The translations under genes were made by a program, and so were the position numbers. A DNA stretch of 32,000 nucleotides, taken from NCBI RefSeq assembly GCF_001412615.1, contig NZ_CP013011.1:1350001-1382000 (forward strand). The letters are read 5' to 3'. Position 1 is the stretch's first letter. Each line of letters begins with the position of its first letter. Shown piece after piece: positions 6,276 through 25,836 of this stretch. The notes beneath the pieces were generated by a model. The model did no database searches. It had not been told where the DNA came from and saw only the letters and a program-made list of their open reading frames with translations. The DNA is from Pyrodictium delaneyi (GTDB lineage Archaea; Thermoproteota; Thermoprotei_A; Sulfolobales; Pyrodictiaceae).

Positions 6276-6381
6276 TCTAGTCCGCTACGGCGGCTGGGAG
6301 TACGTCTCTCTAGGACAGAGTCACGCTATGCCTCTTACCAGTACTGCAGGCAGAGCCTATCACGGCAATACTCCGGCGTTC

Positions 6382-8625: not shown

Positions 8626-8984
8626 ACCACGAAACTAAAACAAGCCAAGATACATATTTAACACTACAACATACACACCCTCCCAGAAAAACACAGCCCA
8701 TGACAGTAAGCTGTCGTGAACGGTTTAGAACCTCTTATTTCTAGCGGCCATAGCCCCAGGCACCAGGGGCAACACATAAATACCACTACACCCGTAAAAC
8801 CGTTTAGAAAAACGCTAGACATGTAGAAACAACGCCATCGATGAGACCATCACCGATGATCACACTATTGCCTGGAATAGCTCCACCATAGACGCAATAA
8901 ATAAACACCAGGAGAACCCAAGACTCCACAAAGCAAGGCATAAATATACGTAGCAAATACATAACATCAAGTGGACAACATGCA
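8626..8984 (+). promoter_or_regulatory. CRISPR leader (A/C-rich, low complexity)
   Basis: About 360 bp of non-coding sequence between the cas6 stop and the first repeat. The degenerate repeats are at the opposite end of the array, which places the leader here. No promoter was mapped. Confidence 0.6.
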
Positions 8985-9937: not shown

Positions 9938-9950
9938 GGGGGGGGGGGGG
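9938..9950. repeat. G13 homopolymer tract
   Basis: Counted directly (ggg + gggggggggg). It lies 37 bp after the last degenerate repeat. Confidence 0.95.
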
Positions 9951-12889: not shown

Positions 12890-13666
12890 TTGGAGCCGGC
12901 TCGCCGTATTATCCCGTGTCTCGACGTGGCTGGTGGTCGAGTAGTCAAGGGGACCCGGTTCCAGAACCTCAGGGACGCTGGCGACCCGGTGGAGCTGGCT
13001 GCCCGGTACGAGGAGGAGGGTGCGGACGAGCTCGTCTTCCTCGATATAAGCGCGACGCCGGAGGAGCGGGAGCCCCTCTACCGGGTCGTACGCGACACGG
13101 CCTCCGTGGTCTCCATACCCTTCACGGTGGGGGGCGGGGTCCGGAGTCTGCGGGACTTCGGCAGGATGCTGGATAGCGGCGCCGACAAGGTCTCGATAAA
13201 CACCGCGGCTGTCCGTGACCCGATGCTGGTCGCTGAGGCTGCACGGGAGTACGGGAGCCAGGCTGTCGTGGTCGCTATCGACGCTAAGTGGGTCGGCAGG
13301 AGCCGGGGGATCCCCAGCGGCTGGGAGGTCTACGTCAGCGGTGGCCGGGTCCCCACCGGGCTGGACGCGGTCGAGTGGGCCCGGACCGTGGCCAGGCTGG
13401 GGGCTGGCGAGATACTCCTCACGAGCATCGACCGTGACGGGACTAGGGAGGGCTACGACCTCGAGCTCACCAGGGCGGTGGTGGAGGCCGTGGATATACC
13501 GGTGATAGCTAGCGGTGGGGCGGGCGAGCCCCGGCACTTTCTCGAGGCGTTCACCGTGGCGGGCGCCGATGCGGCGCTCGCGGCTGGGATCTTCCACTAC
13601 AGGGTGTACAGCGTCAGGGAGGTCAAGGAGTACCTCGCGGAGCGCGGTGTGGAGGTGAGGCTCTAG
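12890..13666 (+). CDS. hisF: Imidazole glycerol phosphate synthase, cyclase subunit HisF
   Basis: '[50 protein letters not shown]' and the C-terminal 'VIASGGAG...AALAAGIFH' are hallmark HisF motifs. Confidence 0.95.
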
Positions 13667-13668
13667 CC

Positions 13669-14952
13669 GTGCCCAGGCTAGTCTACGCGGAGTGGCCCCG
13701 GGGCCCCGGCGCCGAGGAGCTGCGGGGCCTCCTCGAGAGGAGCTATAGCCTCGACGAGTACGTGGAGCGTGTCCGCCCTATAGTCGAGGACGTGCGGCGC
13801 CGGGGCTACGAGGCGGCAAGGGAGTACAGCAGGAGGTTCGACGGCGTAGCGCCAGAGGACCCCAGGGTTCCCAGGAGCGTGATGAGGGAGGCTCTAGAGA
13901 GCCTCGACACGAGTATAGTGGAGGCTCTGGAGAAGGCTGTGGAGGCGGTCCGGCTCTACCATGTCTCCACCAGGCCCGCGGAGACCGGGGTCCCCGGGGC
14001 AAGGCTGCGCTGGCTCCCCGTGGAGCGCGTCGGCGTCTACGCGCCGGGCGGCGCCCACCCATACCCGTCCACGGTCGTACACACGGTCGTGCCCGCGAAG
14101 GCTGCTGGCTGCAGCCGGGTGGTCGTCGCGTCGCCGCCGTGCCGGGGCCAGGGCTGCCGCGGGTTCCCCGTACACCCCGCGGTACTCGCCGCAGCATACC
14201 TCGCGGGCGCCGACATGGTCTACGCTCTGGGCGGCGCGCAGGCCGTAGCAGCGCTAGCCTACGGCGCCGAGCCGGTGGAGAGGGTAGACATGGTGGTGGG
14301 GCCGGGGAGCCCCTACGTGCAGGCCGCTAAGCTCCTCGTATCCAGCGTCGTCGGCGTAGACATGATAGCCGGGCCGACCGAGGTAGCAGTGGTCGCCGAC
14401 TGCACGGCGGACCCGCGGCAGGTAGCGCTCGACATGCTAGCTGAGGCCGAGCACGGCCCCCTAAGCCTCGCGGTCCTAGCCACCCCGTGCCGGGGCCTAG
14501 CCGAGAGGGTCTACGAGATCCTCAGGCAGGAGGCCCGGGAGGGGATAGGGGACCTAGCGGTCGCGGTGACCCCGGGGCTCGACGAGGCCCTAGAGCTGGC
14601 AGACGCTATGGCGCCGGAGCACCTCGTAGCCTACCTTGGGGATCCGGGCCCGGTGCTAGAGCGCCGGGTCAGCGCCGGGGTGGTCAGTCTAGGGGTGCCG
14701 CCTGCGCTACTCGACTACGCCTATGGCCCCAGCCACGTGCTGCCCACCGGGGGCTCGGCTAGGTGGATGGGCGGGCTCAGTGTCTACACCTTCCTCCGGC
14801 CCGTGGCGCACGTGGAGCCGGGGCTGGAGGAGCGCTACCTCGAGGCAGCGATCACACTCGCCAGGCTGGAGGGCTTCGAGAACCACGCTCGGAGCCTAGA
14901 GCACAGGCTAGAGGAGCTAAGGAGGGGAGGAAGGAGCCTTGACGGGCAGTAG
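13669..14952 (+). CDS. hisD: Histidinol dehydrogenase HisD
   Basis: 'ALGGAQAVAALAYG', 'VGPGSPYVQAAKLLV', 'GVDMIAGPTEVAVVAD' and 'DMLAEAEHGP' match HisD signatures. The start is 3 nt after the hisF stop. Confidence 0.95.
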   Translation: MPRLVYAEWPRGPGAEELRGLLERSYSLDEYVERVRPIVEDVRRRGYEAAREYSRRFDGVAPEDPRVPRSVMREALESLDTSIVEALEKAVEAVRLYHVSTRPAETGVPGARLRWLPVERVGVYAPGGAHPYPSTVVHTVVPAKAAGCSRVVVASPPCRGQGCRGFPVHPAVLAAAYLAGADMVYALGGAQAVAALAYGAEPVERVDMVVGPGSPYVQAAKLLVSSVVGVDMIAGPTEVAVVADCTADPRQVALDMLAEAEHGPLSLAVLATPCRGLAERVYEILRQEAREGIGDLAVAVTPGLDEALELADAMAPEHLVAYLGDPGPVLERRVSAGVVSLGVPPALLDYAYGPSHVLPTGGSARWMGGLSVYTFLRPVAHVEPGLEERYLEAAITLARLEGFENHARSLEHRLEELRRGGRSLDGQ

Positions 14953-15244
14953 CTGCCTAGGCTTCCTAGAGGAGCTCGACCGGGTCATCGAGCAGCGGGC
15001 CAGGGAGATGCCGGAGGGCAGCTACACCGCCAGGCTACTCCGGGACCCGGGGCTCGCCGCCAGGAAGCTCGGCGAGGAGGCCGCCGAGGCCATGGTCGAG
15101 GCGCTGATTGGCACCCGGGAGAGGCTGGTAGAGGAGGCCGCCGACCTACTGTACCACCTCATGGTGCTGCTCCGGCTCCGCGGCGCAAGCCTATGCGACG
15201 TGGCCAGGGCGTTGGAGGCGAGGGCTGGTTGGCGCCGAGGGTAG
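14939..15244 (+). CDS. hisE: Phosphoribosyl-ATP pyrophosphatase HisE
   Basis: 'LEELDRVIEQRAREMPEGSYTARLL', 'KLGEEAAEAMVEA' and 'EEAADLLYHLMVLL' match the MazG-like HisE pattern. It overlaps the hisD stop by 14 nt. Confidence 0.85.
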   Translation: MTGSSCLGFLEELDRVIEQRAREMPEGSYTARLLRDPGLAARKLGEEAAEAMVEALIGTRERLVEEAADLLYHLMVLLRLRGASLCDVARALEARAGWRRG

Positions 15245-15246
15245 CA

Positions 15247-15849
15247 GTGATACAGTACGGCGTCGGCAACATCTACAGCATCGTCTCGGGGCTGCGCCGC
15301 GCCGGCGCAGAGCCCACGGTGATGGACTGCCTCCGAGACCCAGGCGACTGGGACGGTGTAGTGCTGCCGGGCGTCGGCGCCTACGCTGCAGCCTCGATGA
15401 GGCTCCACCGGTGCGCCTGGGAGATACGCGAGGCCCTCAAGATGGGCGCCCAGCTCCTCGGGGTATGCCTCGGCCTCCAGCTACTATTCACGGATAGCCG
15501 TGAGGCGGGGGAGCACAGCTACGGGCTCTCGCTACTCCCCGGCACCGTCGAGAAGCTCACAGCAGCCAAGCTGCCCCACATCGGCTGGAGCAGGGTCTAC
15601 CGCGTCCCAGGCCGGGACTGCAGACTCCTAGAGGGCATCGAGGACGGCAGCCACTTCTACTACGTGCACAGCTACGCCTACACCCGCGTCTGGGAGCCCT
15701 GGGTCTGCGCCGTGAGCCGCTACGGCGAGACGGTCTACGCGGCGGTCGTCGAGCAGCCACCGGTCTACGCTACCCAGTTCCACCCCGAGAGGAGCAGCAG
15801 GCTCGGCCAAAGGGTGCTCCGGAACTGGGTCGCGCTGCTCCGCCGCTAG
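15247..15849 (+). CDS. hisH: Imidazole glycerol phosphate synthase, glutamine amidotransferase subunit HisH
   Basis: 'VIQYGVGNIYS', nucleophile-Cys context 'LGVCLGLQLL', 'LPHIGW' and 'TQFHPERSS'. The track ORF starts at 15193 inside hisE. The in-frame GTG at 15247, just after the hisE stop, gives the canonical N-terminus. Confidence 0.9.
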   Translation: MIQYGVGNIYSIVSGLRRAGAEPTVMDCLRDPGDWDGVVLPGVGAYAAASMRLHRCAWEIREALKMGAQLLGVCLGLQLLFTDSREAGEHSYGLSLLPGTVEKLTAAKLPHIGWSRVYRVPGRDCRLLEGIEDGSHFYYVHSYAYTRVWEPWVCAVSRYGETVYAAVVEQPPVYATQFHPERSSRLGQRVLRNWVALLRR

Positions 15850-15912
15850 CCCCGTACATCCACCGGTGCAGCTCCTCCAGCTGGAGCCAGGCGCACAGGG
15901 GGCGTACACGCC

Positions 15913-16710
15913 GTGGAGGAGAAGGAGGGCAAAGAGAGGAGGCTCATACCCGTAGCCGTGGTCGACGCTGTCACCGGCGAGCCCCTGATGCTCGCCTACG
16001 CTGACGAGGAGGCCCTGGAGCGGACCAGGGAGACGGGCCTGGCCCACTTCTACTCCCGTAGCCGGGCTAGCCTCTGGCTCAAGGGAGCGTCGAGCGGCGG
16101 GCTACTCGACGTGATACGGGTACTAGGCGACTGCGACGGCGACGCAGCAGCCTACGTGGCGCGGCCCCGGCGGCACGTATGCCACCTGGGCAAGAGGAGC
16201 TGTTTCCACAACACGTTGCTCGACCGCCGCCGCGAGATACTCGAGGAGCTGCTGGAGGAGACGGGGCCCCATACCCGGCTAGACGGGGGCGCTGTGAGGC
16301 ATCCGCTCTCCACGTGGACGCCGCCACCGCAGCCCCTGCTCGCAGCCCTAGCGGCAGAGCTACTAGCTGAGAGGATACGCTCCAGGGCGGGCCCAGGCCT
16401 CACAGCAGTACTCGCGCCCGAGGCCCCCGGCGGGCTCCTCGCGCTCCTAGCAGCCCAGAAGCTCAACGTCAGCCTCCACCTAGCCCAGGGCGGCCGCGTA
16501 CCCGAGAGCATCGGTGAGACGGACCGAGTGGCGGTCTACGCGCCGAGCCCCGCCGAGGCCCAGGCGCTAGCAGAGGCTGCGCGGCAGCGAGGCGCCCACG
16601 TGGCGGCAGTGGCTGCGCTAGCAGCCCCCGCCGGGGAGGACACAAGGGGCGTAGACGTGCTCATCCGGGTCGAGCCCGGCCAGCCGCCACGCCCGAGACT
16701 GGCACTCTAG
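15913..16710 (+). CDS. hisI: Phosphoribosyl-AMP cyclohydrolase HisI fused to a C-terminal degenerate phosphoribosyltransferase-like domain
   Basis: Residues about 10-100 match HisI ('LIPVAVVDAVTGEPLMLAYADEEALERTRETGLAHFYSRSRASLWLKGASSG...DCDGDA...CHLGKRSCFH'). Residues about 135-255 have a type I PRTase-like layout ('LTAVLAPEAPGGLLALLAAQKL'). They lack the PRPP loop: 'RVAVYAPSPAEAQ' sits where VLIVDDxxxTG is expected. Confidence 0.8.
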   Translation: MEEKEGKERRLIPVAVVDAVTGEPLMLAYADEEALERTRETGLAHFYSRSRASLWLKGASSGGLLDVIRVLGDCDGDAAAYVARPRRHVCHLGKRSCFHNTLLDRRREILEELLEETGPHTRLDGGAVRHPLSTWTPPPQPLLAALAAELLAERIRSRAGPGLTAVLAPEAPGGLLALLAAQKLNVSLHLAQGGRVPESIGETDRVAVYAPSPAEAQALAEAARQRGAHVAAVAALAAPAGEDTRGVDVLIRVEPGQPPRPRLAL

Positions 16711-16758
16711 CCACATTACCTGTTCGCTCCTATCGATGCTACCTATGTTGCATATCCA

Positions 16759-17280
16759 CTATTGCCTACAAGCTTTTGCCACGGCCCCTAGGAGCCGCCT
16801 AAACTCATCCACCTTCTCTAGGCTGCCAGCGTTGTCGGCCTCTAGGAGCAGCTGGGGCAGGAAACGCTTCTCGTAGTCCCTCCGGTGTATCCGCCTCCAG
16901 TACTCGTTTACAGCTCTCACTGGTCCCCCGTTGCACGGCTTGTCTCGGCAGCCCCGTAGCCCGAGCGCAGTACATGCTAGCGCCTCCATGCAGGGGTCGA
17001 TAGCTATCACCTCGACATCCCCACCTAGCCTGTGCTTCTCACGGACACTCCTCTCCCGTTCACTAGCCCGGCCCAGCTCGGCATCCACGAGGATGACCAC
17101 GCGCCTGCCACTCCTCAGGTGGGCCGAGACTATCCTAGTCATCTTCGCGCTGCAGACCGGGAGGTGCAGCACCATGAAGCAGTGGAGGCCCCGGCGGCCG
17201 AGGAGCAGCTCTAGAGCTCTCTTCGCGTAGCGGTCCTCGACGACTAATACGACTCTGCCGCCGCTCGCCAAGGCTGGCAA
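16759..17280 (-). CDS. Stand-alone mini-Toprim-like protein (RloB / DUF4276 / AriB-like candidate nuclease)
   Basis: 173 aa with a TTG start 11 nt after the stop of the upstream ATPase. 'RVVLVVEDRYAKRALELLL' supplies the Toprim Glu strand. 'RRVVILVDAELG' is a DxD-type acidic strand, here D-A-E. 'IAIDPCMEALACT' resembles the NPCFE(L/A)W element of RloB/DUF4276 proteins. Assignment is by motif pattern only. Confidence 0.55.
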   Translation of the reverse strand: MPALASGGRVVLVVEDRYAKRALELLLGRRGLHCFMVLHLPVCSAKMTRIVSAHLRSGRRVVILVDAELGRASERERSVREKHRLGGDVEVIAIDPCMEALACTALGLRGCRDKPCNGGPVRAVNEYWRRIHRRDYEKRFLPQLLLEADNAGSLEKVDEFRRLLGAVAKACRQ

Positions 17281-17291
17281 TGACCTCCGGG

Positions 17292-19010
17292 CTAGCTTGT
17301 CTCTAGGAGGCCGTAGAGGAGCGCCTCGCTAGGCGTCACGCCAAGTTCCCTCAGCTTCTCCGTAAGCTTCTCAGGGTCGCGGATCCTCCTAACCCTAGTC
17401 CCACCCGCTCCAATCTCGACTAGGGCTACCTCGTCCAGGCTCTTAGCAGCGTCAACTACCACGGGAGAATGGGTGGCAACAATAGCTGTCGGCACGCTAC
17501 GCCTAAGCTCCTCTAGCAGCAGCTCCTGGGCGGACGCGTGAAGGCTATTCTCGAACTCGTCAACAGCCACGAGGCTAGCCCCGCTCAGCACAGCAGCCAT
17601 CACAGCCATAGTCTTCCAGGCACCCTCAGGCACAGAAGGCTGGGCAACCTCCACGTTGTCAACTACGAGTCGAAACGCTACCCTACCATCTGGCGTAGGC
17701 TCAAAGAACCCCGAGACACTGCTAGCGTTCAGCACGTCAGCAAGCACGGCGGCAACATCCTCTGGGAGACGGCCACGCCCGAGCCGGAACAGCACCGAGA
17801 GAAGGTTAGACGCGTCTTCCCTGAGCCTCCCTGCAGGCTCCAACACTTGCGGCGAACGCAGAGAACGATAATCAAGCAAACGAAGAACAGTAATACCGTC
17901 AATGAATATTCCAACCAGATATGCGGCCATAATCAATACTGCAACGATGCTCGTGGCTATACTGGATCCCAGGCTTAGGGCCAGTTTCCTAGCAACATCG
18001 CCCACAATACCCGGCAACTTGTCTACCTTCTCTTGCTTTCCTACCAGCTTGCTCATGAGACAGCTGACAAGCTGCTCAGCGAGTTTAGTGAAGTCCAGCT
18101 TATTCAGCATTACAGCAGCTATGCTCTCCCATGAGAGATGTGAAACAATAGCATCTGCTTCTTCAAAGATATCGATCGGGTAGTTTGCTTTACCGACACG
18201 GTCGAGGTAGAGATCAAGAACGCTTCTAGCTGGTATGACTCCCGCTGTAGGAGTGCCTCCGGCTAGTGTCTTCTCCTCAAGTAAGGCAACAACTTGGTCT
18301 CTAAGCTGCTCTAGCATATCATTCATCTGGATATTACATGTAGTAAGAACATCTCCAATAATTACTATGTTGTCGGCTCTTTCGGCTATTTTCGCGGCTA
18401 TAGGTAAGATATCCATAGCAATGTTTCCATGGTATACTGGAGGTCTATATGCCAATGGTTTTGCTATTTTGAGGACCACGCCTTTTGGGCTGAAAGCTAG
18501 GCAACCAGCTCCATCAACGCATACCTCGTCTTCGACTATCTGGAATTGTCCTCCTGTGCCGGATACTACAAGCCTATACTTGACCGCTCCCATACCGCCA
18601 CGTACTGCGCTCTTAACGCCTTCTGCTCCCAGCTCTTCTTCTAGGAGTTTTGCTAGTTCTTCTTTGCTACACGCGCTGCAGTCTAGGGTTATGGATATGG
18701 TTATGGGCTTGGTTTCATCGTGCATCCATACAGCGTGGCGGTATCCCCACCAGCGTAGGAACGGGTTGGCTATGCGGCCTCGGAGGTAGTCGAGGGTGTC
18801 CCGGAGGAGTAGCAGCGACTCTATGATGGCTGTTTTGCCCGAGCCGTTGGGGCCTACGAGTATCGTGAGCCTGGTTGGGAGTTCGAGCCTAGTGTCCCGT
18901 AAGGATTTGAAACCGGAGACGCGTAGCTCTGCGAGCCTGCAGCACGTGGGCTGGAGGTTCTGCACCCTTGTTCCTCCCGTGTGTCGTAGTATAGCGGCTG
19001 GCCGGGGCAT
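17292..19010 (-). CDS. SMC/ABC-type (AAA_15/AAA_21-like) ATPase of the OLD/AriA/RloA/AbiLi class, with long middle insertion
   Basis: N-terminal 'LRVSGFKSLRDTRLELPTRLTILVGPNGSGKT' (Walker A). C-terminal 'PEGAWKTMAVMAAVL' (signature-like), 'SLVAVDEFENSLH' (Walker B/D-loop) and 'VATHSP' (H-loop). About 400 residues separate Walker A from Walker B, as in OLD-family/PARIS-type ATPases. An alternative GTG start is at 18965. Confidence 0.8.
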   Translation of the reverse strand: MPRPAAILRHTGGTRVQNLQPTCCRLAELRVSGFKSLRDTRLELPTRLTILVGPNGSGKTAIIESLLLLRDTLDYLRGRIANPFLRWWGYRHAVWMHDETKPITISITLDCSACSKEELAKLLEEELGAEGVKSAVRGGMGAVKYRLVVSGTGGQFQIVEDEVCVDGAGCLAFSPKGVVLKIAKPLAYRPPVYHGNIAMDILPIAAKIAERADNIVIIGDVLTTCNIQMNDMLEQLRDQVVALLEEKTLAGGTPTAGVIPARSVLDLYLDRVGKANYPIDIFEEADAIVSHLSWESIAAVMLNKLDFTKLAEQLVSCLMSKLVGKQEKVDKLPGIVGDVARKLALSLGSSIATSIVAVLIMAAYLVGIFIDGITVLRLLDYRSLRSPQVLEPAGRLREDASNLLSVLFRLGRGRLPEDVAAVLADVLNASSVSGFFEPTPDGRVAFRLVVDNVEVAQPSVPEGAWKTMAVMAAVLSGASLVAVDEFENSLHASAQELLLEELRRSVPTAIVATHSPVVVDAAKSLDEVALVEIGAGGTRVRRIRDPEKLTEKLRELGVTPSEALLYGLLETS

Positions 19011-19067
19011 AAGCGTCTATGGCTCCTGGGCACTGGTGATGCCGGCCCCATTGCGTACTCTGCATCA

Positions 19068-19838
19068 TTGTTTGTCCGTGTTTCTTTTCTCGGTGATACC
19101 GGAGGGTGTTGTAGGCGGGCTCTCCTGGTCTTGTCTAAGCGTTTCGAACGTATGTACACCCGGCTAGCCCTGCTCGCGGAGAGAATGGGTGTCGGCGAGC
19201 TCCTCGCCCCGGTCGTGGAGAGGCTCGCTGTGCTCTATAGCCGGGGTGTGCTGGGTGCGGGGCACGTGGTGCTCGAGCTCGTCGCGGCTGGTGTGCTCGC
19301 CCGCGAGGGCTACACGGTGTCCGTGGAGGAGCCTGTTGACGGGCTAATAGTGGATGTGCTCGCCCGTATGGGTCGTGAGAGGCTCGTGGTGGAGGTCGAG
19401 ACGGGCTATACTCCGCCCCGGTGGAGCCACGCGCCCCTCGCCTACCACGCGGCCCGGCTAGCAGCGAAGACGGCCAGATACAGCCGGCTAGGCGACAGGT
19501 TCGCCCTCGCCTACCCCCTGGGCTACGCTGCGCCCATCCACCCCGCGCTGCTCGAGCCCCCGTGGCGCCGTAGCCCAGGGATGCTAGCTGAGCTGAAGAG
19601 CCTGGTTGACAGGTTCTACCAGAGGCCACCCATACCCCTAGAGGCCTTCCAGCAGGCCCACCTGGACGCGGTGCTGCTCCTCGACCCCGACAACGCCTCG
19701 GCCTACTGGGCCCCGCCGAGCCGCGCCCCCGGCCTACAAGTGCTAGTAGTACAGGCAGCGCTCTCAACGCTGACTAGCCCCGGCGGCGAGCCAGGGACAG
19801 CCAGCGTAGTGACCGCTGCAGCTGCTACACCGTCTTAG
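19068..19838 (+). CDS. Hypothetical protein with Hjc/PD-(D/E)xK nuclease-like N-terminal core
   Basis: 'GHVVLELVAAGVLAREGYTVSVEEPVDGLIVDVLARMGRERLVVEVETG' follows the E...D...E-x-K layout of Hjc-type restriction-endonuclease folds, with Thr in place of Lys. The likely true start is ATG 19152. The 3' end overlaps the convergent ATPase gene by 14 nt. Confidence 0.45.
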   Translation: MFVRVSFLGDTGGCCRRALLVLSKRFERMYTRLALLAERMGVGELLAPVVERLAVLYSRGVLGAGHVVLELVAAGVLAREGYTVSVEEPVDGLIVDVLARMGRERLVVEVETGYTPPRWSHAPLAYHAARLAAKTARYSRLGDRFALAYPLGYAAPIHPALLEPPWRRSPGMLAELKSLVDRFYQRPPIPLEAFQQAHLDAVLLLDPDNASAYWAPPSRAPGLQVLVVQAALSTLTSPGGEPGTASVVTAAAATPS

Positions 19839-21216
19839 AGGCGGCTGGCTCCACTACTCGGTGGCGGTGGAGCCACTCCAGGTCCACGGCTATGTGGTGC
19901 TCCTCCAGTATCGGCTCGTCTAGCTCCCGGGCTACCAGGACGTAGTAGTTCCGGGGCGAGGCTAGCCCTGTCTCGCCCGCCTTCTCCTCGAGCCTCGCCA
20001 GGACTCGGCGCGCATCCGAGACGCTCAGCCGGGCCCACTTAGCCTCGATGAAGGCCGTGGCTTTGCCGGGGCTCCTCACGACTAGGTCTATCTCGATTCC
20101 CCGGTGCCACCAGGGCCCAGCCTGCCGCGGCTCAACGGGCAGGATACCCCGGTCTATCATACGCGTGGCCAGCTGCGGCACGATGGTCTCCTCGAAGGCC
20201 CGTCCCATGTAGCTGTCTAGCTCCTCGAGTATTACGCGACGCGCCTTCTCCACAGCACCAGACTCTATCAGGCTCCTCAACGGGAGTATGAAGCTGAACC
20301 AGAACCTGAAGAAGTTGTCCCTGAACCGGAGCTGGACGGGCCTACGGCGGCCTAGGGGCCGCACCCTCTCCACCAGGTCCAGCTCCTCGAGGACCTCGAT
20401 GTAGCGACCGATACTCCTCGGATCGACCCCCGCAGCGTGGGCGGCCTCGCTCGGCTCCACCCTGCCCTCGGCGACAGCCCGGAGCACAGCGAGGTATGTT
20501 CGGGGCTCGCGTAGCTCCTGCCTGAGGAGCCACACCGGCTCATCGAGGAGCGGGCTACCGGGCCGCGTAGCCTCCTCCACGAGCCTCTCAGCCGAAGCAC
20601 TGGGCCCCAGGAGGGCCAGGTAGGCCGGTGTGCCCCCAGCTACCCCGTAGAGCCGGGCCGCCTCCACCGCTGTTAGTCCCGGGTTGAAGCCCCAAGCCTC
20701 CCAGAACATCATGGGGCGTAGCTTCAACTGCCCAGTACGCCGGCCATAGAGCGGCGCCTGGTACCCGAGTAGCCGCTTCTCGAAGAAGGAGACCGATGAG
20801 CCACAGAGTACCAGCACCATCTCCGAGCCCCGTAGGACGGTGTCTATGCTCCTCATGAGCCGGCTCGGCAGCGACGGGTCAGCCTCCACCAGGTACTGGA
20901 ACTCGTCGAGAACAACCACCAGCTTGTCCCCGCCCCGGTGGAGCCTGACGAGTGCCTCCAGAACCTCCACAACATCCCCAGCAACGGGGAGCCCTAGAGT
21001 ATCCCTCACCGCTAGGGAGAACTCCCGGGCAAGGTTCTCATAGGGCAACTCAGCAGCCACGTAGTAGACGCAGGGCCTACCGCGGCAGAACCAGCGCAGC
21101 AGATACGTCTTCCCGACGCGTCTCCGCCCATACACCACTAGCAGCCGGAAGCCCGGTTCACGGTACTCCCGCTCAAGCAGTCCTAGCTCCTGCTCCCGGT
21201 CAACCAGTAACTCCAC
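19825..21216 (-). CDS. Archaeal ATPase (PF01637-type AAA+) with wHTH and C-terminal DUF234 (PD-(D/E)xK-like) domain
   Basis: 'LVDREQELGLLE...LLVVYGRRRVGKTYLL' (Walker A) and 'LVVVLDEFQYL' (Walker B). The C-terminal 'WHRGIEIDLVVRSPGKATAFIEAKWA' has the D...E-x-K motif characteristic of DUF234. Confidence 0.8.
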   Translation of the reverse strand: MELLVDREQELGLLEREYREPGFRLLVVYGRRRVGKTYLLRWFCRGRPCVYYVAAELPYENLAREFSLAVRDTLGLPVAGDVVEVLEALVRLHRGGDKLVVVLDEFQYLVEADPSLPSRLMRSIDTVLRGSEMVLVLCGSSVSFFEKRLLGYQAPLYGRRTGQLKLRPMMFWEAWGFNPGLTAVEAARLYGVAGGTPAYLALLGPSASAERLVEEATRPGSPLLDEPVWLLRQELREPRTYLAVLRAVAEGRVEPSEAAHAAGVDPRSIGRYIEVLEELDLVERVRPLGRRRPVQLRFRDNFFRFWFSFILPLRSLIESGAVEKARRVILEELDSYMGRAFEETIVPQLATRMIDRGILPVEPRQAGPWWHRGIEIDLVVRSPGKATAFIEAKWARLSVSDARRVLARLEEKAGETGLASPRNYYVLVARELDEPILEEHHIAVDLEWLHRHRVVEPAASKTV

Positions 21217-21280
21217 AGTTTTCGCCCCTGGAAGCGACGCCGCGAGAGGCGCTAAAACAGCTACGACAGACCCAGGGCCA

Positions 21281-21298
21281 CCCCCCCCCCCCCCCCCC
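21281..21298. repeat. C18 homopolymer tract
   Basis: Counted directly (10 + 8 C). It lies in the 134-bp spacer between the hisB stop (21351) and the start of the ATPase-DUF234 gene (21216). Confidence 0.95.
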
Positions 21299-21350
21299 TA
21301 CATGGGTGTTACCCGTATTGCTGCGCCCAGCTCCGGAAGCAATGCATGGG

Positions 21351-21968
21351 CTAGCTCCGCGGAGGCAGTATCGCGCCCTTAGTCGACACGACCCCCTGGC
21401 TCTGGGCCAAGGCCTGCCGCAGAGCCATGCCCAGGGCCTTGAAGGCCGCCTCGGCCACGTGGTGATCGTTCTCACCGCGAAGCGTGACCACGTGCAGGGT
21501 CATACCGGCAGCGGCGGCTAGGCTCTGCATGAAGTGCGGAATATTCTCCGTGGCAAGGCCTCCGATAGACTCGCGGCGTAGAGGTAGCTCTACCCAGGCC
21601 CCAGGCCGCCCCGAGTAATCCACAGAAACGAGGACAAGCGCCTCATCCATGGGCACCACTGCGTAGCCGAATCGCGCCACCCGGTAGCCCCCTGCTGCCA
21701 CAGCCTTGGCTATAGCCTCGCCCAGCGCCAGCGCAAGATCCTCAGCCACGTGGTGATCATCTACACGCTTAACTTCCTCCACCTCGACGCGGAGCCCCCA
21801 GCCAGCATAGTAGGCAAGAGTCTCCACCATATGGTCGAGGAAGGGTACACTGGTCGATACACCGATCTCCCGCAGTTCAGAGCCATCGAGATCGACGTCT
21901 ACCCGCACTATGGTCTCCTTCGTCCGGCGCTCGACTTTTACTCTCCGAGCCAATACAGCTCGCCCCAA
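21351..21968 (-). CDS. hisB: Imidazoleglycerol-phosphate dehydratase HisB
   Basis: 'RRTKETIVRVDVDLDGS', 'VPFLDHMVETLA', 'DDHHVAEDLALALGEA', 'VPMDEALVLVSVDYSGRP' and 'GENDHHVAEAAFKALGMAL' are duplicated IGPD motifs. Confidence 0.93.
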   Translation of the reverse strand: MGRAVLARRVKVERRTKETIVRVDVDLDGSELREIGVSTSVPFLDHMVETLAYYAGWGLRVEVEEVKRVDDHHVAEDLALALGEAIAKAVAAGGYRVARFGYAVVPMDEALVLVSVDYSGRPGAWVELPLRRESIGGLATENIPHFMQSLAAAAGMTLHVVTLRGENDHHVAEAAFKALGMALRQALAQSQGVVSTKGAILPPRS

Positions 21969-22203
21969 AGTGGTTTAGGGGCTGGGCTGGTAAATAGATG
22001 CAGTGAAGCCCCAGGCTGTCGTGCAGAACATTAACTATATTAAAGATAGCTTATCTTGTAAGCCAGGTGAAACATAGCCCCTATGTTTGATATATCATTC
22101 CATTATAGAACAATATTACTATAACTTTGCTGAATGAATATAAGATACTCTAAGTCTAATACAACGTAGAGAAATGGCACAAAACTTGTAGCTGGTTAGA
22201 CCG

Positions 22204-22258
22204 ATCAAGATAGCCGCTCTATAATCAGTGCTAGTATACTCTGATACACTATCTTGAT
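22204..22258. repeat. Perfect 10-bp inverted repeat ATCAAGATAG ... CTATCTTGAT (35-nt spacer); related AAGATA-GCT-TATCTT palindrome at 22043-22057
   Basis: Read directly from the sequence, inside the 490-bp AT-rich intergenic region. Confidence 0.9.
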
Positions 22259-22457
22259 ATCTAGTTCTTTGCGCAGTGTGCATACACTATTACCTTGGTA
22301 TAGGTATAATAGTGTGTTATTTGTGTAGTTATCAGAACTTTTGAGCTAATGAACAAATTGTATACTTCAGACGTGCGCCCAGTATATAACTGGCCAATTA
22401 CAGAGTATAACCATCTGGAGAACAGGTACAAAGTCTGAAAGAGGTGCATCCTAAGCC

Positions 22458-23198
22458 ATGAACAGACTCGTATACGTGTTAATACCCGTAGTGCTAGTCG
22501 CGCTAGCAGCTGCAGGATACGTCTACCTCAAGGGCGCAGAGGCTCCGACAGCGGAGACCACTGTAGCGAGTACCACTCCACAAACCATGACGGGGCAGTC
22601 GATACCCGGAGGCCACGGCCCCGGTGCTGGAGGGGCAAGCGTCTCGACGATGGTTCAGCAGCTTCCGGCAGAGCCTCTCTCAGAGGATGAGAAGGAGAGC
22701 CTACTCTTCATGGTCGAGGAGGAGAAGCTGGCCCGCGACGTTTACAACAGGCTTGCAGAGATGTACCCTGAGGTGCAAGTGTTCGCAAATATTGCGAGGA
22801 GCGAGCAGCAGCACGTAGACTCGGTAATGCAGCTAATAGAGAAGTACGGGCTGGAGATAGATCTCGGGCAGCCCGGCGAGTTCCACAACCAGGAGCTACA
22901 GCAGCTCTACAACGAGCTAGTAGACCGCGGCTCTAAGAGCCTAGAAGAAGCACTGAAAGTGGGCGCACTGATAGAGGAGAAGGACATAGTTGACCTAAAG
23001 GACTGGCTCGCTAAGGTAGACAACGAGGACATCAAGCTAGTCTACGAGAACCTTATGCACGGCAGCTTCAACCACCTATGCGCCTTCACAAGGACGCTGA
23101 AGAACATGCTGGGCATAGACTACAAGCCAGTACTCCTCGACGAGGAGACATACAACAGCATCATATCCAGCTGCTCCATGGGCGGCCCCAAGCAGTAA
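22458..23198 (+). CDS. DUF2202 ferritin-like domain protein with N-terminal membrane anchor/signal
   Basis: N-terminal 'LVYVLIPVVLVALAAAGYVYL', then 'LSEDEKESLLFMVEEEKLARDVYNRL...FANIARSEQQHVDSV...ALKVGALIEEKDIVDL...YENLMHGSFNHLCAF', matching the DUF2202 di-iron-like helical repeats. GAGGTG is about 12 nt upstream of the ATG. Confidence 0.8.
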   Translation: MNRLVYVLIPVVLVALAAAGYVYLKGAEAPTAETTVASTTPQTMTGQSIPGGHGPGAGGASVSTMVQQLPAEPLSEDEKESLLFMVEEEKLARDVYNRLAEMYPEVQVFANIARSEQQHVDSVMQLIEKYGLEIDLGQPGEFHNQELQQLYNELVDRGSKSLEEALKVGALIEEKDIVDLKDWLAKVDNEDIKLVYENLMHGSFNHLCAFTRTLKNMLGIDYKPVLLDEETYNSIISSCSMGGPKQ

Positions 23199-23388
23199 GA
23201 AGTTGGAGAGTGTGGGGACACGAGGCATCCATATTATTATTATTTTGGCTTAGTGCTACCCTTTGTCGTGTCTTCATTAATACCTCTTGGCTACAGTCGG
23301 CTATAGTGTAGACACCGAGCCTTAGTCTCTAAAACACCCAAGACTATTGGCTCGTATCTAGATCCTTTCCTAGGTCTCGCTCTAGCGT

Positions 23389-24138
23389 CTATTCTAGCAT
23401 GCCTAGTGGGTTGAGCCGCCAGGTGTAGAGGGCCATGCCTGCTACTGCTTCGTCGTAGCCTAGTGCTGCGAGGAGCTCTAGGTCCCGTGGGCTTGCTATG
23501 CCTCCGCTGTATGCTAGCCTTGGTGCACCTGCCTCCCGGGCTAGCCGGGCTAGCCTTGCCGCGCGGTGGATGTCTACGCCGCGTAGCTCGCCTTCGTGGA
23601 AGACCTGGGTGTAGAATATACCCCAGATGCCCCGGGTTCCGGCTGCCAGCTTCACGGCCTCGGCTAGGGTCATCGGCTCCCGTGCTCTCCACGCGCTGGT
23701 CGCGGGCAGCGCCTCCCAGGACTCCTCGACGGCTGGTACTACTATGCCTGGGCCGAGCGCTGCCACAGCCTCTTCTAGGAACTCGGGGCGGCGGAGCCAC
23801 GCGCTAGCCACTACTAGGCGGTCGGCGCCCGCGCTGTGAGCCTCCTCTAGGGCCTCTATGGTGCGGAGCCCGCCGCCGAGCTGGATCGTGACCCCTGTCT
23901 CCCTCTTGGCCCATTTGACCAGGTCTAGGACGCAGCTGCTGGGCTTGCCCCTGGCCGCGCCGTCTAGGTCGACTATGTGGAGGGTCCTGGCGCCCAGCGT
24001 GTGCCAGAGCGCTACGAGGCGCCTGGGGTCTCCGAGGCGTAGCCCGGTGCCGGGAACCCCGCGGACCAGCTTGACGGCCTCGCAGCCGGCTACGTCTATG
24101 CTGGGTACGAGCCGGGGCCTGGAGAGCGGGCAGGGCAT
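23389..24138 (-). CDS. hisA: ProFAR isomerase HisA
   Basis: 'LVPSIDVAGCEAVKLVRG', 'LHIVDLDGAARGKP', 'IQLGGGLRT' and 'LAYSGGIAS' are HisA (beta/alpha)8 phosphate-binding motifs. The start is 3 nt after the hisG stop. Confidence 0.9.
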   Translation of the reverse strand: MPCPLSRPRLVPSIDVAGCEAVKLVRGVPGTGLRLGDPRRLVALWHTLGARTLHIVDLDGAARGKPSSCVLDLVKWAKRETGVTIQLGGGLRTIEALEEAHSAGADRLVVASAWLRRPEFLEEAVAALGPGIVVPAVEESWEALPATSAWRAREPMTLAEAVKLAAGTRGIWGIFYTQVFHEGELRGVDIHRAARLARLAREAGAPRLAYSGGIASPRDLELLAALGYDEAVAGMALYTWRLNPLGMLE

Positions 24139-24140
24139 GG

Positions 24141-25028
24141 CTAGGGTATCACCCTGTCCACGCTGAGCACTAGTATGTCCCGGGCGCCGCGCTTACGGGC
24201 CTCGACGAGGACATGTGCTAGCCGGTCTTCCGGCACCACTGTTATCACCTCCCACATGGGCCGGGGGCCCTCCACCCTGGCTATAGTCGGCCCCGACATC
24301 GAGGGCAATACCTCTACTACCTGCTCCAGTACCTCCTCGGGCACGTTCATGAGGACTAGCTTGTAGCCCCTTGCCCTCAGCACGCTCCTCACAGCCTCCA
24401 CGATGACCTCGACGAGCGGATCCTGGGGGTCTACGTGGCTGCCCCTGATCAGCTTAGCCTCTGTCCGCATAACCTCTGCTATTACCCGTAGCCCGTGTAG
24501 CCGGAGAGTAGTCCCGGTCGATGAGACGTCTAGTATAGCGTCTGCCACGCCTAGCCTGGGCATCGCCTCAGCCGAGCCCGTTATCCTGATTATCCGGGCC
24601 CGCACCCCGTGGCTCTCGAAGAACCTCCGGGCGATGTTGACGAACTTAGTCGCCACCCGGACCCCATCGGGGAGGTCCCTGATGCTCTCCACCGGCGCCT
24701 CCTCCGGCACTGCGACCACGAGGCGGGCGCGGCCGATCCCCAGGCCCTCGACGATCTCTAGGCCCTCGCCGCCATGCTCCTCTATGTAGTCGAGCCCCGT
24801 GATGCCGAGCTCTGCGCCGCCCGCAGACACTATCGCCGGTATATCCTCGGGCCGGACGTAGACCAGGGACACGTTGTCCCAGTTAGTGGGCACTATCAGC
24901 GCGCGGGTCGCGTCGGGGCTATAGAGCGGCTCTATGCCTGCCGCCTCTAGTAGTCGGAGCACCGGCTCCCGTAGCCGGCCCTTGCTCGGGACAGCTATCC
25001 TTATGCCCACTCCATACTCACCCCGCAT
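24141..25028 (-). CDS. hisG: ATP phosphoribosyltransferase HisG (long form with C-terminal regulatory domain)
   Basis: 'IRIAVPSKGRLREPVLRLLEAAGI', 'VRPEDIPAIVSAGGAELGITGLDYIEE' and 'ILDVSSTGTTLRLHGL'. At 295 aa it includes the C-terminal domain. Confidence 0.9.
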   Translation of the reverse strand: MRGEYGVGIRIAVPSKGRLREPVLRLLEAAGIEPLYSPDATRALIVPTNWDNVSLVYVRPEDIPAIVSAGGAELGITGLDYIEEHGGEGLEIVEGLGIGRARLVVAVPEEAPVESIRDLPDGVRVATKFVNIARRFFESHGVRARIIRITGSAEAMPRLGVADAILDVSSTGTTLRLHGLRVIAEVMRTEAKLIRGSHVDPQDPLVEVIVEAVRSVLRARGYKLVLMNVPEEVLEQVVEVLPSMSGPTIARVEGPRPMWEVITVVPEDRLAHVLVEARKRGARDILVLSVDRVIP

Positions 25029-25368: not shown

Positions 25369-25836
25369 GTGGTGGAGCAGGCCTTGATGGAGCAAGAGGA
25401 CAAGGAGCTAGAGAAGCTGATAGAGGACATGGTGCGCAGGATGATAGCCAAACCAGCCATAGAGGAGGACTCCCAACGCGGGGAAGGCGAGGAGCATCCA
25501 GTAAAGCTAGTGCTCGACGACAGGGAGCTAGAGAAGATCGTGTGCAGCAAGCCCGTAGCTATAGTGCTCTTCACAAGCCCGGGATGCCCAGCCTGCCACG
25601 CATATCGACCGATATTCTACCACTACGCTGGCGAAGCCCGCCGCCGGTACGGCGACAAGGTGGAGTTCGTCGAGGCGGACGTATACCACGTATACGACAA
25701 GGCTGTCGAGCTGGGCATATCAGCTACGCCGACAACCGTTGTGTTCCGACACTGCCGGCCGGTGGACGGGTTCGTGGGCATGGTTGATGAGGAGACCCTC
25801 GCGGAGATGGTCGAGCCGTACATCCGGGAGGCCTAG
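25369..25836 (+). CDS. Thioredoxin-fold protein (CPAC active site) with acidic N-terminal extension
   Basis: 'VAIVLFTSPGCPACHAYRPIF' (CxxC) and 'ISATPTTVVF' (cis-Pro loop context). The start is uncertain (GTG 25369 or ATG 25387). Confidence 0.7.
   Translation: MVEQALMEQEDKELEKLIEDMVRRMIAKPAIEEDSQRGEGEEHPVKLVLDDRELEKIVCSKPVAIVLFTSPGCPACHAYRPIFYHYAGEARRRYGDKVEFVEADVYHVYDKAVELGISATPTTVVFRHCRPVDGFVGMVDEETLAEMVEPYIREA

What the first reader, a model, noticed from the sequence alone, without database searches (positions are those of the whole stretch)
16711..21350. A ~4.5-kb defence-like gene block interrupts the histidine biosynthesis cluster
hisF-D-E-H-I (+) ends at 16710 and hisB (-) ends at 21351. 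Between them lie four non-his genes: mini-Toprim, ABC-type ATPase, Hjc-like PD-(D/E)xK protein and Arch-ATPase+DUF234. All have nuclease or NTPase signatures typical of defence islands. The middle of the ATPase gene (about 17880-18560) is visibly more AT-rich than the flanking his genes, which suggests foreign origin. The right border carries the C18 tract. I could not find an integrase, a tRNA target or flanking direct repeats, so the insertion mechanism is unknown.
Basis: partly seen in the sequence, partly recalled or inferred. Interest (0 to 1): 0.65.

Follow-up and report, generated by a model that had tools for sequence, protein, structure and literature searches.

The report
Rearranged his operon collecting nuclease genes
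In the archaeon Pyrodictium delaneyi the histidine operon has been split and half of it inverted, and the break point holds three unrelated gene units acquired at different times, of which only the newest, an ATPase plus a small nuclease, looks like a mobile anti-virus system.

Summary
Four non-his genes lie between hisI (stop 16710) and hisB (stop 21351), the ATPase gene has an AT-rich middle, and a C18 tract is at 21281-21298. The interpretation of one foreign defence block is only partly right.

Relatives show the ancestral operon is hisG-A-B-F-D-E-H-I on one strand, so the broken junction is hisB|hisF, not hisI|hisB.

The block built up in steps:
- The PD-(D/E)xK-fold gene already sits beside hisB in a distant Pyrodictium relative. 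Its family is widespread in TACK archaea and elsewhere sits beside ribosomal genes, so it is not defence-like by context.
- The ATPase_2+DUF234 gene is shared with a closer relative (90% aa).
- The ABC ATPase plus mini-Toprim pair (16714-19004) is missing from that closer relative, where 268 unrelated bases take its place.

The same pair recurs as a tight two-gene module in at least 7 unrelated genomic contexts and 15 of 16 informative metagenome contigs.

It is a split OLD/PARIS/AbiL/HEC-01-like module, with a conserved ATPase head, a hypervariable insert and a small RloB/OLD-like Toprim carrying four invariant cysteines. Defence function is inferred, not shown.

The C-tract differs in length between strains. 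No integrase, tRNA or flanking repeats were found.

The parts
12890..16710 (+). hisF-hisD-hisE-hisH-hisI, the distal half of the ancestral operon, inverted here relative to hisG-A-B
   Evidence: Pfam hits. The order is colinear hisGABFDEHI in L001, L002, L007 and L085.
16714..19004 (-). 2291-bp segment carrying the ABC ATPase and mini-Toprim genes. It is absent from the close relative L087, where 268 unrelated bases take its place.
   Evidence: blastn of L087 against the window. L087 1-510 matches 16204-16713 and L087 779-2637 matches 19005-20868. No remnant of either gene is found in L087 511-778.
16759..17280 (-). Mini-Toprim (RloB/OLD-like) protein of 173 aa, the predicted nuclease effector. 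Conserved residues are E15, D66-x-E68, E74, K82-H83, D95 and four Cys (C97, C103, C111, C116).
   Evidence: AF2 pLDDT 87.4. Best PDB match is the OLD C-terminal region 6njv, E 2.2e-3, prob 0.94. Best BFVD match is an RloB-like protein, prob 1.0, TM 0.59/0.50. PADLOC mad4 2.4e-4. Alignment A4.
17292..19010 (-). ABC-type (AAA_15/AAA_21, SMC_N) ATPase of 572 aa. Walker A is GPNGSGKT (aa 52-59), Walker B is D484-E485, H-loop is H514.
   Evidence: Pfam. Best PADLOC hit is HEC-01A 8.9e-25, with further hits to mad3, AriA, PtuA, GajA and AbiLi. Invariant columns in A5.
17961..18713 (-). Hypervariable, AT-rich insert of the ABC ATPase (about aa 100-350), the proposed sensor/assembly region
   Evidence: Identity to 30 homologues is 6-32% here, against 70-90% in the head segments. 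The region is still weakly homologous. GC3 is 0.30-0.46.
19152..19838 (+). PD-(D/E)xK-fold protein of an uncurated TACK-archaeal family. Alternative TTG starts are at 19068 and 19131. Invariant residues are E59, D68, E81 and K106.
   Evidence: AF2 pLDDT 82.9. The leading Foldseek PDB matches (about the first nine: XisH, SfsA, Can2, HamA, Cdn1) are restriction-endonuclease-fold nucleases, and such nucleases dominate the list. 148 clusters in the representative search. Invariant columns. Orthologue next to hisB in L085 and next to hisI in L087.
19825..21216 (-). AAA+ ATPase_2 + wHTH + DUF234 (PD-(D/E)xK) protein of 463 aa. Walker A is GRRRVGKT. The DUF234 domain has the D...ExK motif intact (IDLVV...IEAKW).
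   Evidence: Pfam ATPase_2 2e-23 and DUF234 4.2e-21. PADLOC PDC-S27 4e-33 over the full length. DUF234 is listed as a PD-(D/E)XK family in PMC3424549. 90% aa identity in L087, absent in L085.
21281..21298 (+). C18 homopolymer (G18 on the coding strand of hisB and the ATPase gene). It lies 53 nt after the hisB stop and 65-82 nt before the ATPase_2 start, and its length differs between strains.
   Evidence: C18 in the window. C14 in strain Hulk contig L081. A second Hulk contig (L082) ends inside the tract.
21351..21968 (-). hisB, the last gene of the proximal half hisG-hisA-hisB
   Evidence: IGPD 2.6e-50.
23389..25028 (-). hisA (23389-24138) and hisG (24141-25028)
   Evidence: Pfam.

Best explanation
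The region is a rearranged histidine operon whose break point has collected three independent gene units at different times.

The ancestral operon was hisG-A-B-F-D-E-H-I on one strand.

Step 1. In the Pyrodictium lineage, a gene of a widespread TACK-archaeal PD-(D/E)xK nuclease family came to lie after hisB.

Step 2. The hisFDEHI half was inverted. A single-protein AAA+ ATPase/nuclease gene (ATPase_2+wHTH+DUF234) was added between hisB and the PD-(D/E)xK gene.

Step 3. In P. delaneyi, a 2.3-kb cassette with exactly two genes replaced 268 bp between hisI and the PD-(D/E)xK gene. The cassette encodes an ABC ATPase and a 19-kDa Toprim-like protein.

Only this last unit behaves as a portable module. 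It is best read as a split OLD-type ATPase-nuclease conflict system, working like PARIS, AbiL or HEC-01. This mechanism is inferred, not shown. The ABC ATPase oligomer holds or gates the small Toprim nuclease. Its hypervariable insert senses an invader-derived trigger. ATP binding or hydrolysis then releases or activates the Toprim protein, which cuts nucleic acid (DNA or tRNA) and stops the virus or the infected cell.

The ATPase_2+DUF234 protein is probably an NTP-dependent nuclease of unknown target. It is a defence candidate only.

The PD-(D/E)xK protein is probably a housekeeping nuclease.

The C18 tract is a slippage-prone homopolymer in the hisB-ATPase_2 spacer, not an insertion scar.
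For: Ancestral order. hisB abuts hisF, and hisI is the terminal gene, in L001, L002 and L007.

Stepwise build-up.
- L085 (about 75-78% nt identity) has hisG-A-B-[PD-(D/E)xK orthologue, 70% aa]-...-hisF-D-E-H-I all colinear, with no DUF234 and no ABC/Toprim gene.
- L087 (81-86% nt) has hisI, then 268 bp, then PD-(D/E)xK (87% aa), then DUF234 ATPase (90% aa), with no ABC/Toprim gene.

Portability of the pair.
- It occurs in different neighbourhoods in L083, L084, L093 (next to an integrase, PIN and NurA), L094/95 (between MNT and HEPN genes) and L176 (between PRT and purD).
- In 15 of 16 informative metagenome loci the Toprim homologue follows the ABC gene directly on the same strand.

Kinship.
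- The ABC ATPase best matches HEC-01A (8.9e-25). It also matches mad3, AriA, PtuA, GajA and AbiLi.
- The small protein folds as Toprim. OLD C-terminal region 6njv is the best PDB hit and an RloB-like protein is the best BFVD hit.
- Acidic residues are conserved.

Hypervariable insert.

PD-(D/E)xK family. 148 clusters, found in Acidilobaceae, Korarchaeum and Nitrososphaeraceae. In four loci it sits after the ribosomal-protein operon.

Tract length varies between strains.
Against: - There is no functional evidence of any kind. HEC-01, the nearest PADLOC model, gave no protection in E. coli assays (bioRxiv 10.1101/2024.01.29.577857).
- The Toprim assignment rests on weak scores (Foldseek E about 2e-3, PADLOC 2.4e-4) and on AF2 models built from 4-sequence alignments.
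- Gain in P. delaneyi versus loss in the L087 lineage cannot be settled. P. abyssi has a truncated copy of the Toprim gene (84% aa), and its location could not be retrieved.
- Composition does not cleanly mark the cassette as foreign. Its overall GC equals the published genome mean.
- No insertion mechanism was found.
- Several copies of the pair sit among ordinary metabolic genes, not in defence islands.
Confidence: 0.68

Rival explanations
1. One foreign defence island of about 4.5 kb, with all four genes, was inserted in a single event into the his cluster between hisI and hisB.
For: All four genes are absent from the his operons of L001, L002 and L007. Three of them match defence-candidate models. 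A CRISPR-Cas locus is nearby.
Against: L085 has only the PD-(D/E)xK gene. L087 has PD-(D/E)xK and DUF234 but not ABC/Toprim. The PD-(D/E)xK and DUF234 genes diverge from L087 about as much as hisI does (86% against 81% nt), which is what vertical descent would give. hisI and hisB were never adjacent in any relative. There is no integrase, tRNA or repeats.
Confidence: 0.05
2. The ABC ATPase plus small Toprim protein is a housekeeping DNA-repair or recombination pair, not an anti-invader system. It would be analogous to RecF/RecR (ABC-type ATPase plus a Toprim protein with a Cys4 zinc finger) or Rad50-type machines.
For: NCBIfam gives weak N-terminal hits to RecF, SMC and Rad50. The small protein has four invariant cysteines, as RecR does. 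RecR appears low in the Foldseek list (8k3f, E 0.22). Several copies sit among metabolic genes.
Against: The distribution is sparse. The word-indexed search of 5.8 billion proteins found only 4 Toprim homologues and 31 ABC homologues. The pair is missing from a close relative and truncated in P. abyssi. Neighbourhoods vary, and some include MNT/HEPN, PIN and an integrase. The best model hits are defence ATPases. The insert is hypervariable. The domain order differs from RecR (Toprim first, Cys cluster after it).
Confidence: 0.12
3. The ABC/Toprim cassette is old at this site and was cleanly deleted in the L087 lineage, rather than recently gained by P. delaneyi.
For: P. abyssi carries an 84%-identical but truncated Toprim gene, so the cassette predates P. 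delaneyi in the genus. The Toprim gene has host-like GC3 (0.74). Homology with L087 resumes exactly at the ABC start codon, so the cassette has no promoter of its own.
Against: L087 keeps 268 bp with no trace of either gene. The outgroup L085 lacks the cassette within 17 kb of its his genes. The ABC gene has clearly lower GC3 than all 15 flanking genes that have orthologues in L085.
Confidence: 0.2
4. The AT-rich middle of the ABC gene only reflects the amino-acid composition of a helical insert and says nothing about its history.
For: GC1 and GC2 are also lower there (0.60 and 0.37). The insert is still homologous to those of relatives.
Against: The synonymous position shows the largest drop. 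GC3 is 0.42, against 0.62-0.63 in the two ends of the same gene. The homologous inserts in L083 and L084 show no dip or only a mild one.
Confidence: 0.25

Closest known systems
HEC-01 (PADLOC candidate: ABC ATPase HEC-01A + separate TOPRIM protein HEC-01B)
   Same: Two-gene layout, with an AAA_15/21-type ABC ATPase followed by a small separate Toprim protein. HEC-01A is the best PADLOC match of the ATPase here and in L083 and L084 (8.9e-25 to 3e-30).
   Different: The small partner does not reach significance against HEC-01B (no hit for the window protein, 0.028 for P0003). HEC-01 was defined in bacteria, embedded in Hma systems, and showed no defence in the assays reported. The present family is confined to thermophilic Thermoproteota and has a Cys4 cluster.
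PARIS (AriA ABC ATPase + AriB DUF4435 Toprim nuclease)
   Same: A split ABC ATPase and Toprim effector. The ATPase has inserts between conserved head motifs, and in AriA these mediate trigger recognition and assembly (PMC11464382). AriA models match at 9e-17.
   Different: There is no DUF4435 match at any threshold. The partner is 19 kDa against 35 kDa for AriB. No evidence exists for tRNA cleavage or for a trigger.
AbiL / RloA-RloB type pairs (AbiLi ATPase + AbiLii RloB-like protein)
   Same: AbiLi models align over the whole ATPase (1e-11 to 5e-16). The best viral-structure match of the small protein is an RloB-like protein (TM 0.59/0.50).
   Different: There is no sequence-level match to the RloB Pfam family or to AbiLii models. 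The organisms are archaeal hyperthermophiles.
OLD-family nucleases (P2 Old, class 1/2; Gabija GajA)
   Same: An ABC ATPase head plus Toprim catalytic domain. The best PDB match of the small protein is the C-terminal Toprim region of Xanthomonas OLD (6njv). GajA and Old models hit the ATPase.
   Different: OLD and GajA are single polypeptides, whereas here the two domains are separate genes. No UvrD-like GajB partner is present.
MADS accessory pair MAD3/MAD4
   Same: mad3 (7e-17) and mad4 (2.4e-4, and 5.6e-5 for P0004) are the only model pair that hits both proteins.
   Different: The mandatory MADS components MAD6-8 and the methyltransferase are absent from the block. The NCBIfam MAD3 score of 46.9 bits is far below the cut-off of 420.
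COG1672 'archaeal ATPase' (Pfam ATPase_2 + DUF234); PADLOC candidate PDC-S27
   Same: Gene 19825-21216 has both Pfam domains above the gathering score and matches PDC-S27 over its full length.
   Different: Nothing distinguishes it from the family. The family's function is untested. PDC systems are 'guilt-by-embedding' predictions.

Membership tests
OLD-family nuclease | ABC ATPase and Toprim domains in one polypeptide | tested here: not met
   There are two separate ORFs, 17292-19010 and 16759-17280, 11 nt apart. They are separate in all 20+ related loci.
OLD-family nuclease | Toprim fold with a conserved Glu and a DxD-type acidic motif | tested here: inconclusive
   The AF2 model (pLDDT 87.4) best matches OLD C-terminal region 6njv, but only at E 2.2e-3 and TM 0.36/0.32. 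E15 is conserved in the five full-length homologues, and D66-x-E68 is invariant in all six. No Pfam Toprim hit.
PARIS | AriA-type AAA_15/AAA_21 ABC ATPase | tested here: met
   Pfam AAA_21 1.1e-16 and AAA_15 1.3e-12. PADLOC AriA 9e-17. These are generic for the ATPase clade, not specific to PARIS.
PARIS | AriB = DUF4435 Toprim nuclease | tested here: not met
   No DUF4435 or any other Pfam family at E<=10 for the window protein or for P0003 and P0004. No AriB model among the PADLOC hits.
HEC-01 (PADLOC) | HEC-01A ATPase adjacent to a HEC-01B Toprim protein, both matching their models | tested here: inconclusive
   HEC-01A 8.9e-25. HEC-01B gives no hit for the window protein and 0.028 for homologue P0003.
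AbiL | AbiLi ATPase + AbiLii (RloB family) partner | tested here: inconclusive
   AbiLi 1e-11 over residues 20-545. There is no AbiLii or RloB sequence hit, but an RloB-like protein is the top BFVD structural match (prob 1.0, TM 0.59/0.50).
MADS | Mandatory MAD6, MAD7 and MAD8 with a methyltransferase in one operon | tested here: not met
   Only mad3 and mad4 models hit. The other two genes of the block match no mad model. The rule that MAD6-8 are mandatory is from bioRxiv 10.1101/2023.03.30.534895.
PD-(D/E)xK nuclease superfamily (gene 19152-19838) | Restriction-endonuclease-like alpha-beta-beta-beta-alpha-beta core with conserved acidic residues and Lys | tested here: met
   The AF2 model (pLDDT 82.9) has the alpha-beta-beta-beta-alpha-beta order. 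The leading Foldseek PDB hits (about the first nine) are PD-(D/E)xK nucleases and such nucleases dominate the list, with XisH prob 1.0 but E only 2e-3. E59, D68, E81 and K106 are invariant in 55 diverse members. The Lys lies in the following helix, not in an ExK triplet.
Hjc Holliday-junction resolvase | Sequence or structure match to Hjc | tested here: not met
   No Pfam or NCBIfam hit. Hjc is not among the top 50 structural matches. The protein is 228 aa with extra N- and C-terminal domains.
ATPase_2 + DUF234 (COG1672) | Both Pfam domains above the gathering score, with Walker A/B and the DUF234 D...ExK motif | tested here: met
   ATPase_2 83.9 bits (cut-off 33.2) and DUF234 75.7 bits (cut-off 22.5). 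The motifs can be read in the translation.
Classical genomic island | Integrase, tRNA target, flanking direct repeats | tested here: not met
   No tRNA in the window. No credible flanking repeats. No integrase domain in the block. The ends of the cassette show a replacement without target-site duplication.
Defence island (guilt by association) | Proximity to known defence systems | tested here: met
   A CRISPR array of 13 repeats lies at 8985-9831, and Cas6, Csx1, Cmr5 and RAMP genes lie at 52-8625. That is 9 genes from the cassette. The association is loose.

The most novel reading that the evidence does not exclude
The ABC ATPase + mini-Toprim pair may work together with an 'archaeal ATPase' (ATPase_2) protein as a three-component system.

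In one hot-spring lineage an ATPase_2 gene follows the pair directly on the same strand (L097, L098, L102, L105, L127). In P. delaneyi the cassette landed one gene away from an ATPase_2+DUF234 gene.

That gene's upstream G-tract (18, 14 or at least 11 nt in different strains or contigs) could then act as a slippage switch for the partner's expression. This would be a phase-variable defence locus in a hyperthermophilic archaeon.
Probability: 0.1. Interest if true: 0.6.

Novelty: new variant of a known kind. Interest (0 to 1): 0.38.

Why it matters
The result gives a dated, stepwise example of how a core biosynthetic operon in a hyperthermophilic archaeon is broken, inverted and then used as a landing site for nuclease and ATPase genes. 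No integrase, tRNA target or repeats are involved, so defence-type cassettes can move in these genomes by a route that leaves no classical island signature.

It also delimits a compact archaeal version of the OLD/PARIS/AbiL class. The ABC ATPase has a conserved head and a hypervariable insert, and its partner is a 19-kDa Toprim protein with a Cys4 cluster that no curated family covers. At least 20 loci are now available for comparison. Proteins from organisms that grow near 100 C are attractive for structural and biochemical work on how ABC ATPases gate Toprim nucleases.

Finally, it shows that one of the four 'defence-like' genes belongs to an unannotated PD-(D/E)xK family conserved across TACK archaea in housekeeping contexts. 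That family deserves its own study.

Tried and rejected
- Exact-sequence look-up of the window's ABC ATPase and of the P. abyssi Toprim fragment found nothing on record. The P. abyssi locus could not be examined.
Only L001, L002, L003 and L007 were useful.
- None of the 80 hisB loci contains a homologue of any of the four block genes.
- The metagenome scan with the mini-Toprim alignment found nothing because its patterns were too specific. The scan with the ABC alignment worked.
- tblastn of the ABC ATPase against the plasmid and phage collections gave no match at 1e-5. No vehicle was identified.
- Rfam found nothing in the window. No tRNA. TRF missed the CRISPR array, which was found by eye.
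- A search for a donor of the AT-rich insert found only 22-32% identity to any fetched homologue. A domain swap from an identifiable source is therefore not demonstrated.
- The 268 bp that replace the cassette in L087, and the genes flanking the his genes in L085, have no counterpart in the window. The inversion break points could not be reconstructed.
- phmmer of the window DUF234 ATPase against neighbours of related cassettes gave no hit. The five ATPase_2 neighbours found with Pfam are one locus in related populations (88-94% nt). A general ABC/Toprim-ATPase_2 association was therefore rejected as unsupported.
- The 548-aa form of the ATPase_2 gene annotated in strain Hulk is a reading-frame effect of G14 versus G18. 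Its extra 85 codons overlap hisB in another frame, so it was treated as an annotation artefact.

Full report
**Source and observation**

The window is Pyrodictium delaneyi. Two of its proteins are 99-100% identical to Pyrde_1376 and Pyrde_1378. The DNA is 99.93% identical to two contigs of strain Hulk.

- hisF-D-E-H-I lie on the + strand and end at 16710.
- hisB lies on the - strand and ends at 21351.
- Four non-his genes lie between them.

The ATPase gene's middle is AT-rich, and C18 sits at 21281-21298. No tRNA, integrase or credible flanking repeats are present.

**What the his cluster looked like before**

In three Desulfurococcales/Pyrodictiaceae genomes the operon is hisG-A-B-F-D-E-H-I on one strand. 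hisB abuts or overlaps hisF, and hisI is last (L001, L002, L007).

The ancestral junction is hisB|hisF. In the window hisG-A-B runs leftwards and hisF-D-E-H-I runs rightwards, and the two halves converge on the block. One half has therefore been inverted.

**The block has three ages**

Contig L085 is a Pyrodictium-like assembly with about 75-78% nt identity. It keeps the colinear order but has an orthologue of the PD-(D/E)xK-like gene (70% aa) right after hisB, plus a PEMT-like gene and small ORFs before hisF. It has no DUF234 ATPase and no ABC/Toprim genes.

Contig L087 is a vent metagenome contig with 81-86% nt identity. It has the inverted arrangement: the hisI 3' end, then 268 bp, then the PD-(D/E)xK gene (87% aa), then the DUF234 ATPase convergent on it (90% aa). 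The ABC and Toprim genes are missing.
- L087 1-510 aligns to window 16204-16713.
- L087 779-2637 aligns to window 19005-20868.
- Window 16714-19004 (2291 bp) therefore stands in place of 268 unrelated bases.
- Homology resumes exactly at the ABC start codon.
- There is no duplication at the borders and no remnant of the genes in L087.

Both P. delaneyi strains carry the cassette.

**The ABC ATPase + mini-Toprim pair**

The ATPase has the ABC head motifs and matches AAA_15, AAA_21 and SMC_N. Its best PADLOC model is HEC-01A (8.9e-25), followed by mad3, AriA, PtuA, GajA and AbiLi.

The 173-aa partner has no Pfam or NCBIfam match even at E 10, and only a weak mad4 hit (2.4e-4).
- Its AF2 model is confident (pLDDT 87.4).
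- The best solved-structure match is the Toprim-containing C-terminal region of Xanthomonas OLD (6njv, E 2.2e-3, prob 0.94).
- The best viral-model match is an RloB-like protein (prob 1.0, TM 0.59/0.50).
- Six homologues share VED-x-Y (E15), D66-x-E68, E74, K82-H83, D95 and four cysteines.

The word-indexed search of 5.8 billion proteins found 4 homologues of the small protein and 31 of the ATPase.

Wherever context is available the two genes are adjacent and co-directional, in unrelated neighbourhoods:
- L083, between RLI and PAPS reductase.
- L084, next to HEPN/NTase and PIN genes.
- L093 (Pyrofollis japonicus), next to an integrase, PIN, a second ABC gene and NurA.
- L094/95, between MNT and HEPN genes.
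- L176, between a PRT gene and purD.
- 15 of 16 informative hot-spring metagenome contigs.

A census of 63 neighbouring ORFs gave ATPase_2, MNT/HEPN, PaREP1, an Eco57I-type methylase and a TnpB-like protein as the recurrent families. The five ATPase_2 cases, however, are a single locus sampled in related populations.

**The hypervariable insert**

Along the ATPase, identity to all 30 homologues is 70-90% in the head segments (aa 51-100 and 400-500). It is only 6-32% in aa 100-350. That stretch is still detectably homologous.

In P. delaneyi the same stretch has GC3 of 0.30-0.46. That is lower than any of 213 fifty-codon windows from 24 other genes in the window (mean 0.77, minimum 0.52). It is also lower than the two ends of the same gene (0.62-0.63) and the Toprim gene (0.74). 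Homologous inserts in L083 and L084 show no dip or a mild one. No donor was found.

In PARIS the equivalent AriA insertions mediate trigger recognition and hexamer assembly (PMC11464382). By analogy this is the likely sensor region, but that is inference.

**Caveat on composition**

The published genome mean for strain Hulk is 53.88% GC (PMC5556600). The ABC gene as a whole (53.7%) is therefore average for the genome. The his genes, the PD-(D/E)xK gene and the DUF234 gene (63-70%) are the high-GC ones.

All 15 genes with orthologues in L085 have lower GC3 in P. delaneyi (0.65-0.88) than in L085 (0.89-0.97). Composition alone therefore does not identify foreign DNA here. The comparative evidence carries the argument.

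**The PD-(D/E)xK-like gene**

There is no curated family for it. The AF2 model is good (pLDDT 82.9). Its structural neighbours are mostly restriction-endonuclease-fold nucleases: XisH, SfsA, Can2, HamA, Cdn1, Bax1, AF1548 and type II enzymes. The scores are weak (best E 2e-3).

A full HMMER scan found 148 clusters, with members in Acidilobaceae, Korarchaeum and Nitrososphaeraceae. E59, D68, E81 and K106 are invariant in 55 diverse members, so it is probably an active nuclease.

In three Acidilobaceae genomes and in L089 it follows the ribosomal-protein operon and a thioesterase gene. This is a core-genome context. It is not Hjc, and nothing ties it to defence.

**The ATPase_2 + DUF234 gene**

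This is a standard member of COG1672. Walker motifs and the DUF234 D...ExK motif are intact. DUF234 is a recognised PD-(D/E)XK family (PMC3424549). It matches the untested PADLOC candidate PDC-S27 (4e-33).

**The C18 tract**

The tract lies in the 134-nt spacer between the hisB stop and the ATPase_2 start.
- Its length is C18 in the window and C14 in one Hulk contig.
- A second Hulk contig ends inside it.
- The only other long G/C run in the window, G13 at 9938-9950, is G7 in Hulk.
- With G14 an upstream ORF becomes in-frame with the ATPase. This explains the 548-aa annotation in Hulk and is probably an artefact.
- L085 has a C-rich stretch at the same place after hisB.

The tract is best read as a slippage-prone homopolymer. 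Sequencing error at homopolymers cannot be excluded. It is not an insertion scar.

**Verdict**

The region is a split and inverted his operon whose junction collected three unrelated units. Only the newest one, the 2.3-kb ABC ATPase/mini-Toprim cassette, behaves like a mobile defence module. It is a new archaeal variant of the OLD/PARIS/AbiL/HEC-01 class and not a member of any one of them by the tests run. Function and mechanism remain inferred.

Noticed in passing
window 8985-9831 (degenerate repeat also about 9877-9901): CRISPR array of 13 exact or near-exact 25-nt repeats (GAATCATAACAAATAGAACTGAAAG) that TRF missed. About 423 bp of the window (within 9086-9536, roughly six repeat-spacer units) has no counterpart in the Hulk contig. 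An AT-rich putative leader lies at 8600-8980, next to cas6.
   Followed up: partly
window 9938-9950: A second long homopolymer, G13, lies just beyond the degenerate end of the CRISPR array. It is G7 in strain Hulk. Both long G/C runs in the window differ between the two strains.
   Followed up: partly
window 21969-23388 (gene 22458-23198 +): A DUF2202 gene with very AT-rich flanks (GC 0.38-0.46) separates hisA from hisB. In L085 hisA and hisB are 135 bp apart, so this is a second, independent interruption of the his cluster.
   Followed up: partly
window 25369-25836 (+): A thioredoxin-family gene sits between hisG and the HTH-PRT gene. It is absent at that position in L085, making a third extra gene in the his neighbourhood.
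   Followed up: no
window 15913-16710 (hisI, aa 100-265): HisI carries a C-terminal extension that is a degenerate, shortened phosphoribosyltransferase-like domain with no Pfam hit. The orthologue in L001 is 326 aa, with what reads by eye as an intact PRT-type motif. The fusion appears to be typical of this lineage, and its role is unknown.
   Followed up: no
window 2478-3483 (-): Two overlapping ORFs (3055-3483 and 2478-3113) match the N- and C-terminal halves of the RAMP profile. This looks like a frameshifted Cmr RAMP gene inside the type III-B locus (RAMPs, Cmr5, Csx1 CARF-HEPN at 52-5300).
   Followed up: no
window 6382-7482 (-): A short (366 aa) TGT-family protein lies next to cas6. By recall, it looks short for an archaeosine tRNA-guanine transglycosylase. 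A DNA-modifying DpdA-like role was not tested.
   Followed up: no
whole window versus L085: All 15 shared genes have much lower GC3 in P. delaneyi (0.65-0.88) than in the relative L085 (0.89-0.97). The window (59.3% GC) is well above the published genome mean (53.88%). The genome seems compositionally heterogeneous or in rapid GC decline.
   Followed up: partly
L118 1306-3489 (-) and 3727-6065 (+): One hot-spring contig carries two divergent copies of the ABC ATPase + mini-Toprim pair back to back.
   Followed up: no
L176 1589-3423: A natural variant of the ABC ATPase (429 aa) lacks most of the hypervariable insert but keeps its mini-Toprim partner. It could help define the minimal functional core.
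   Followed up: no
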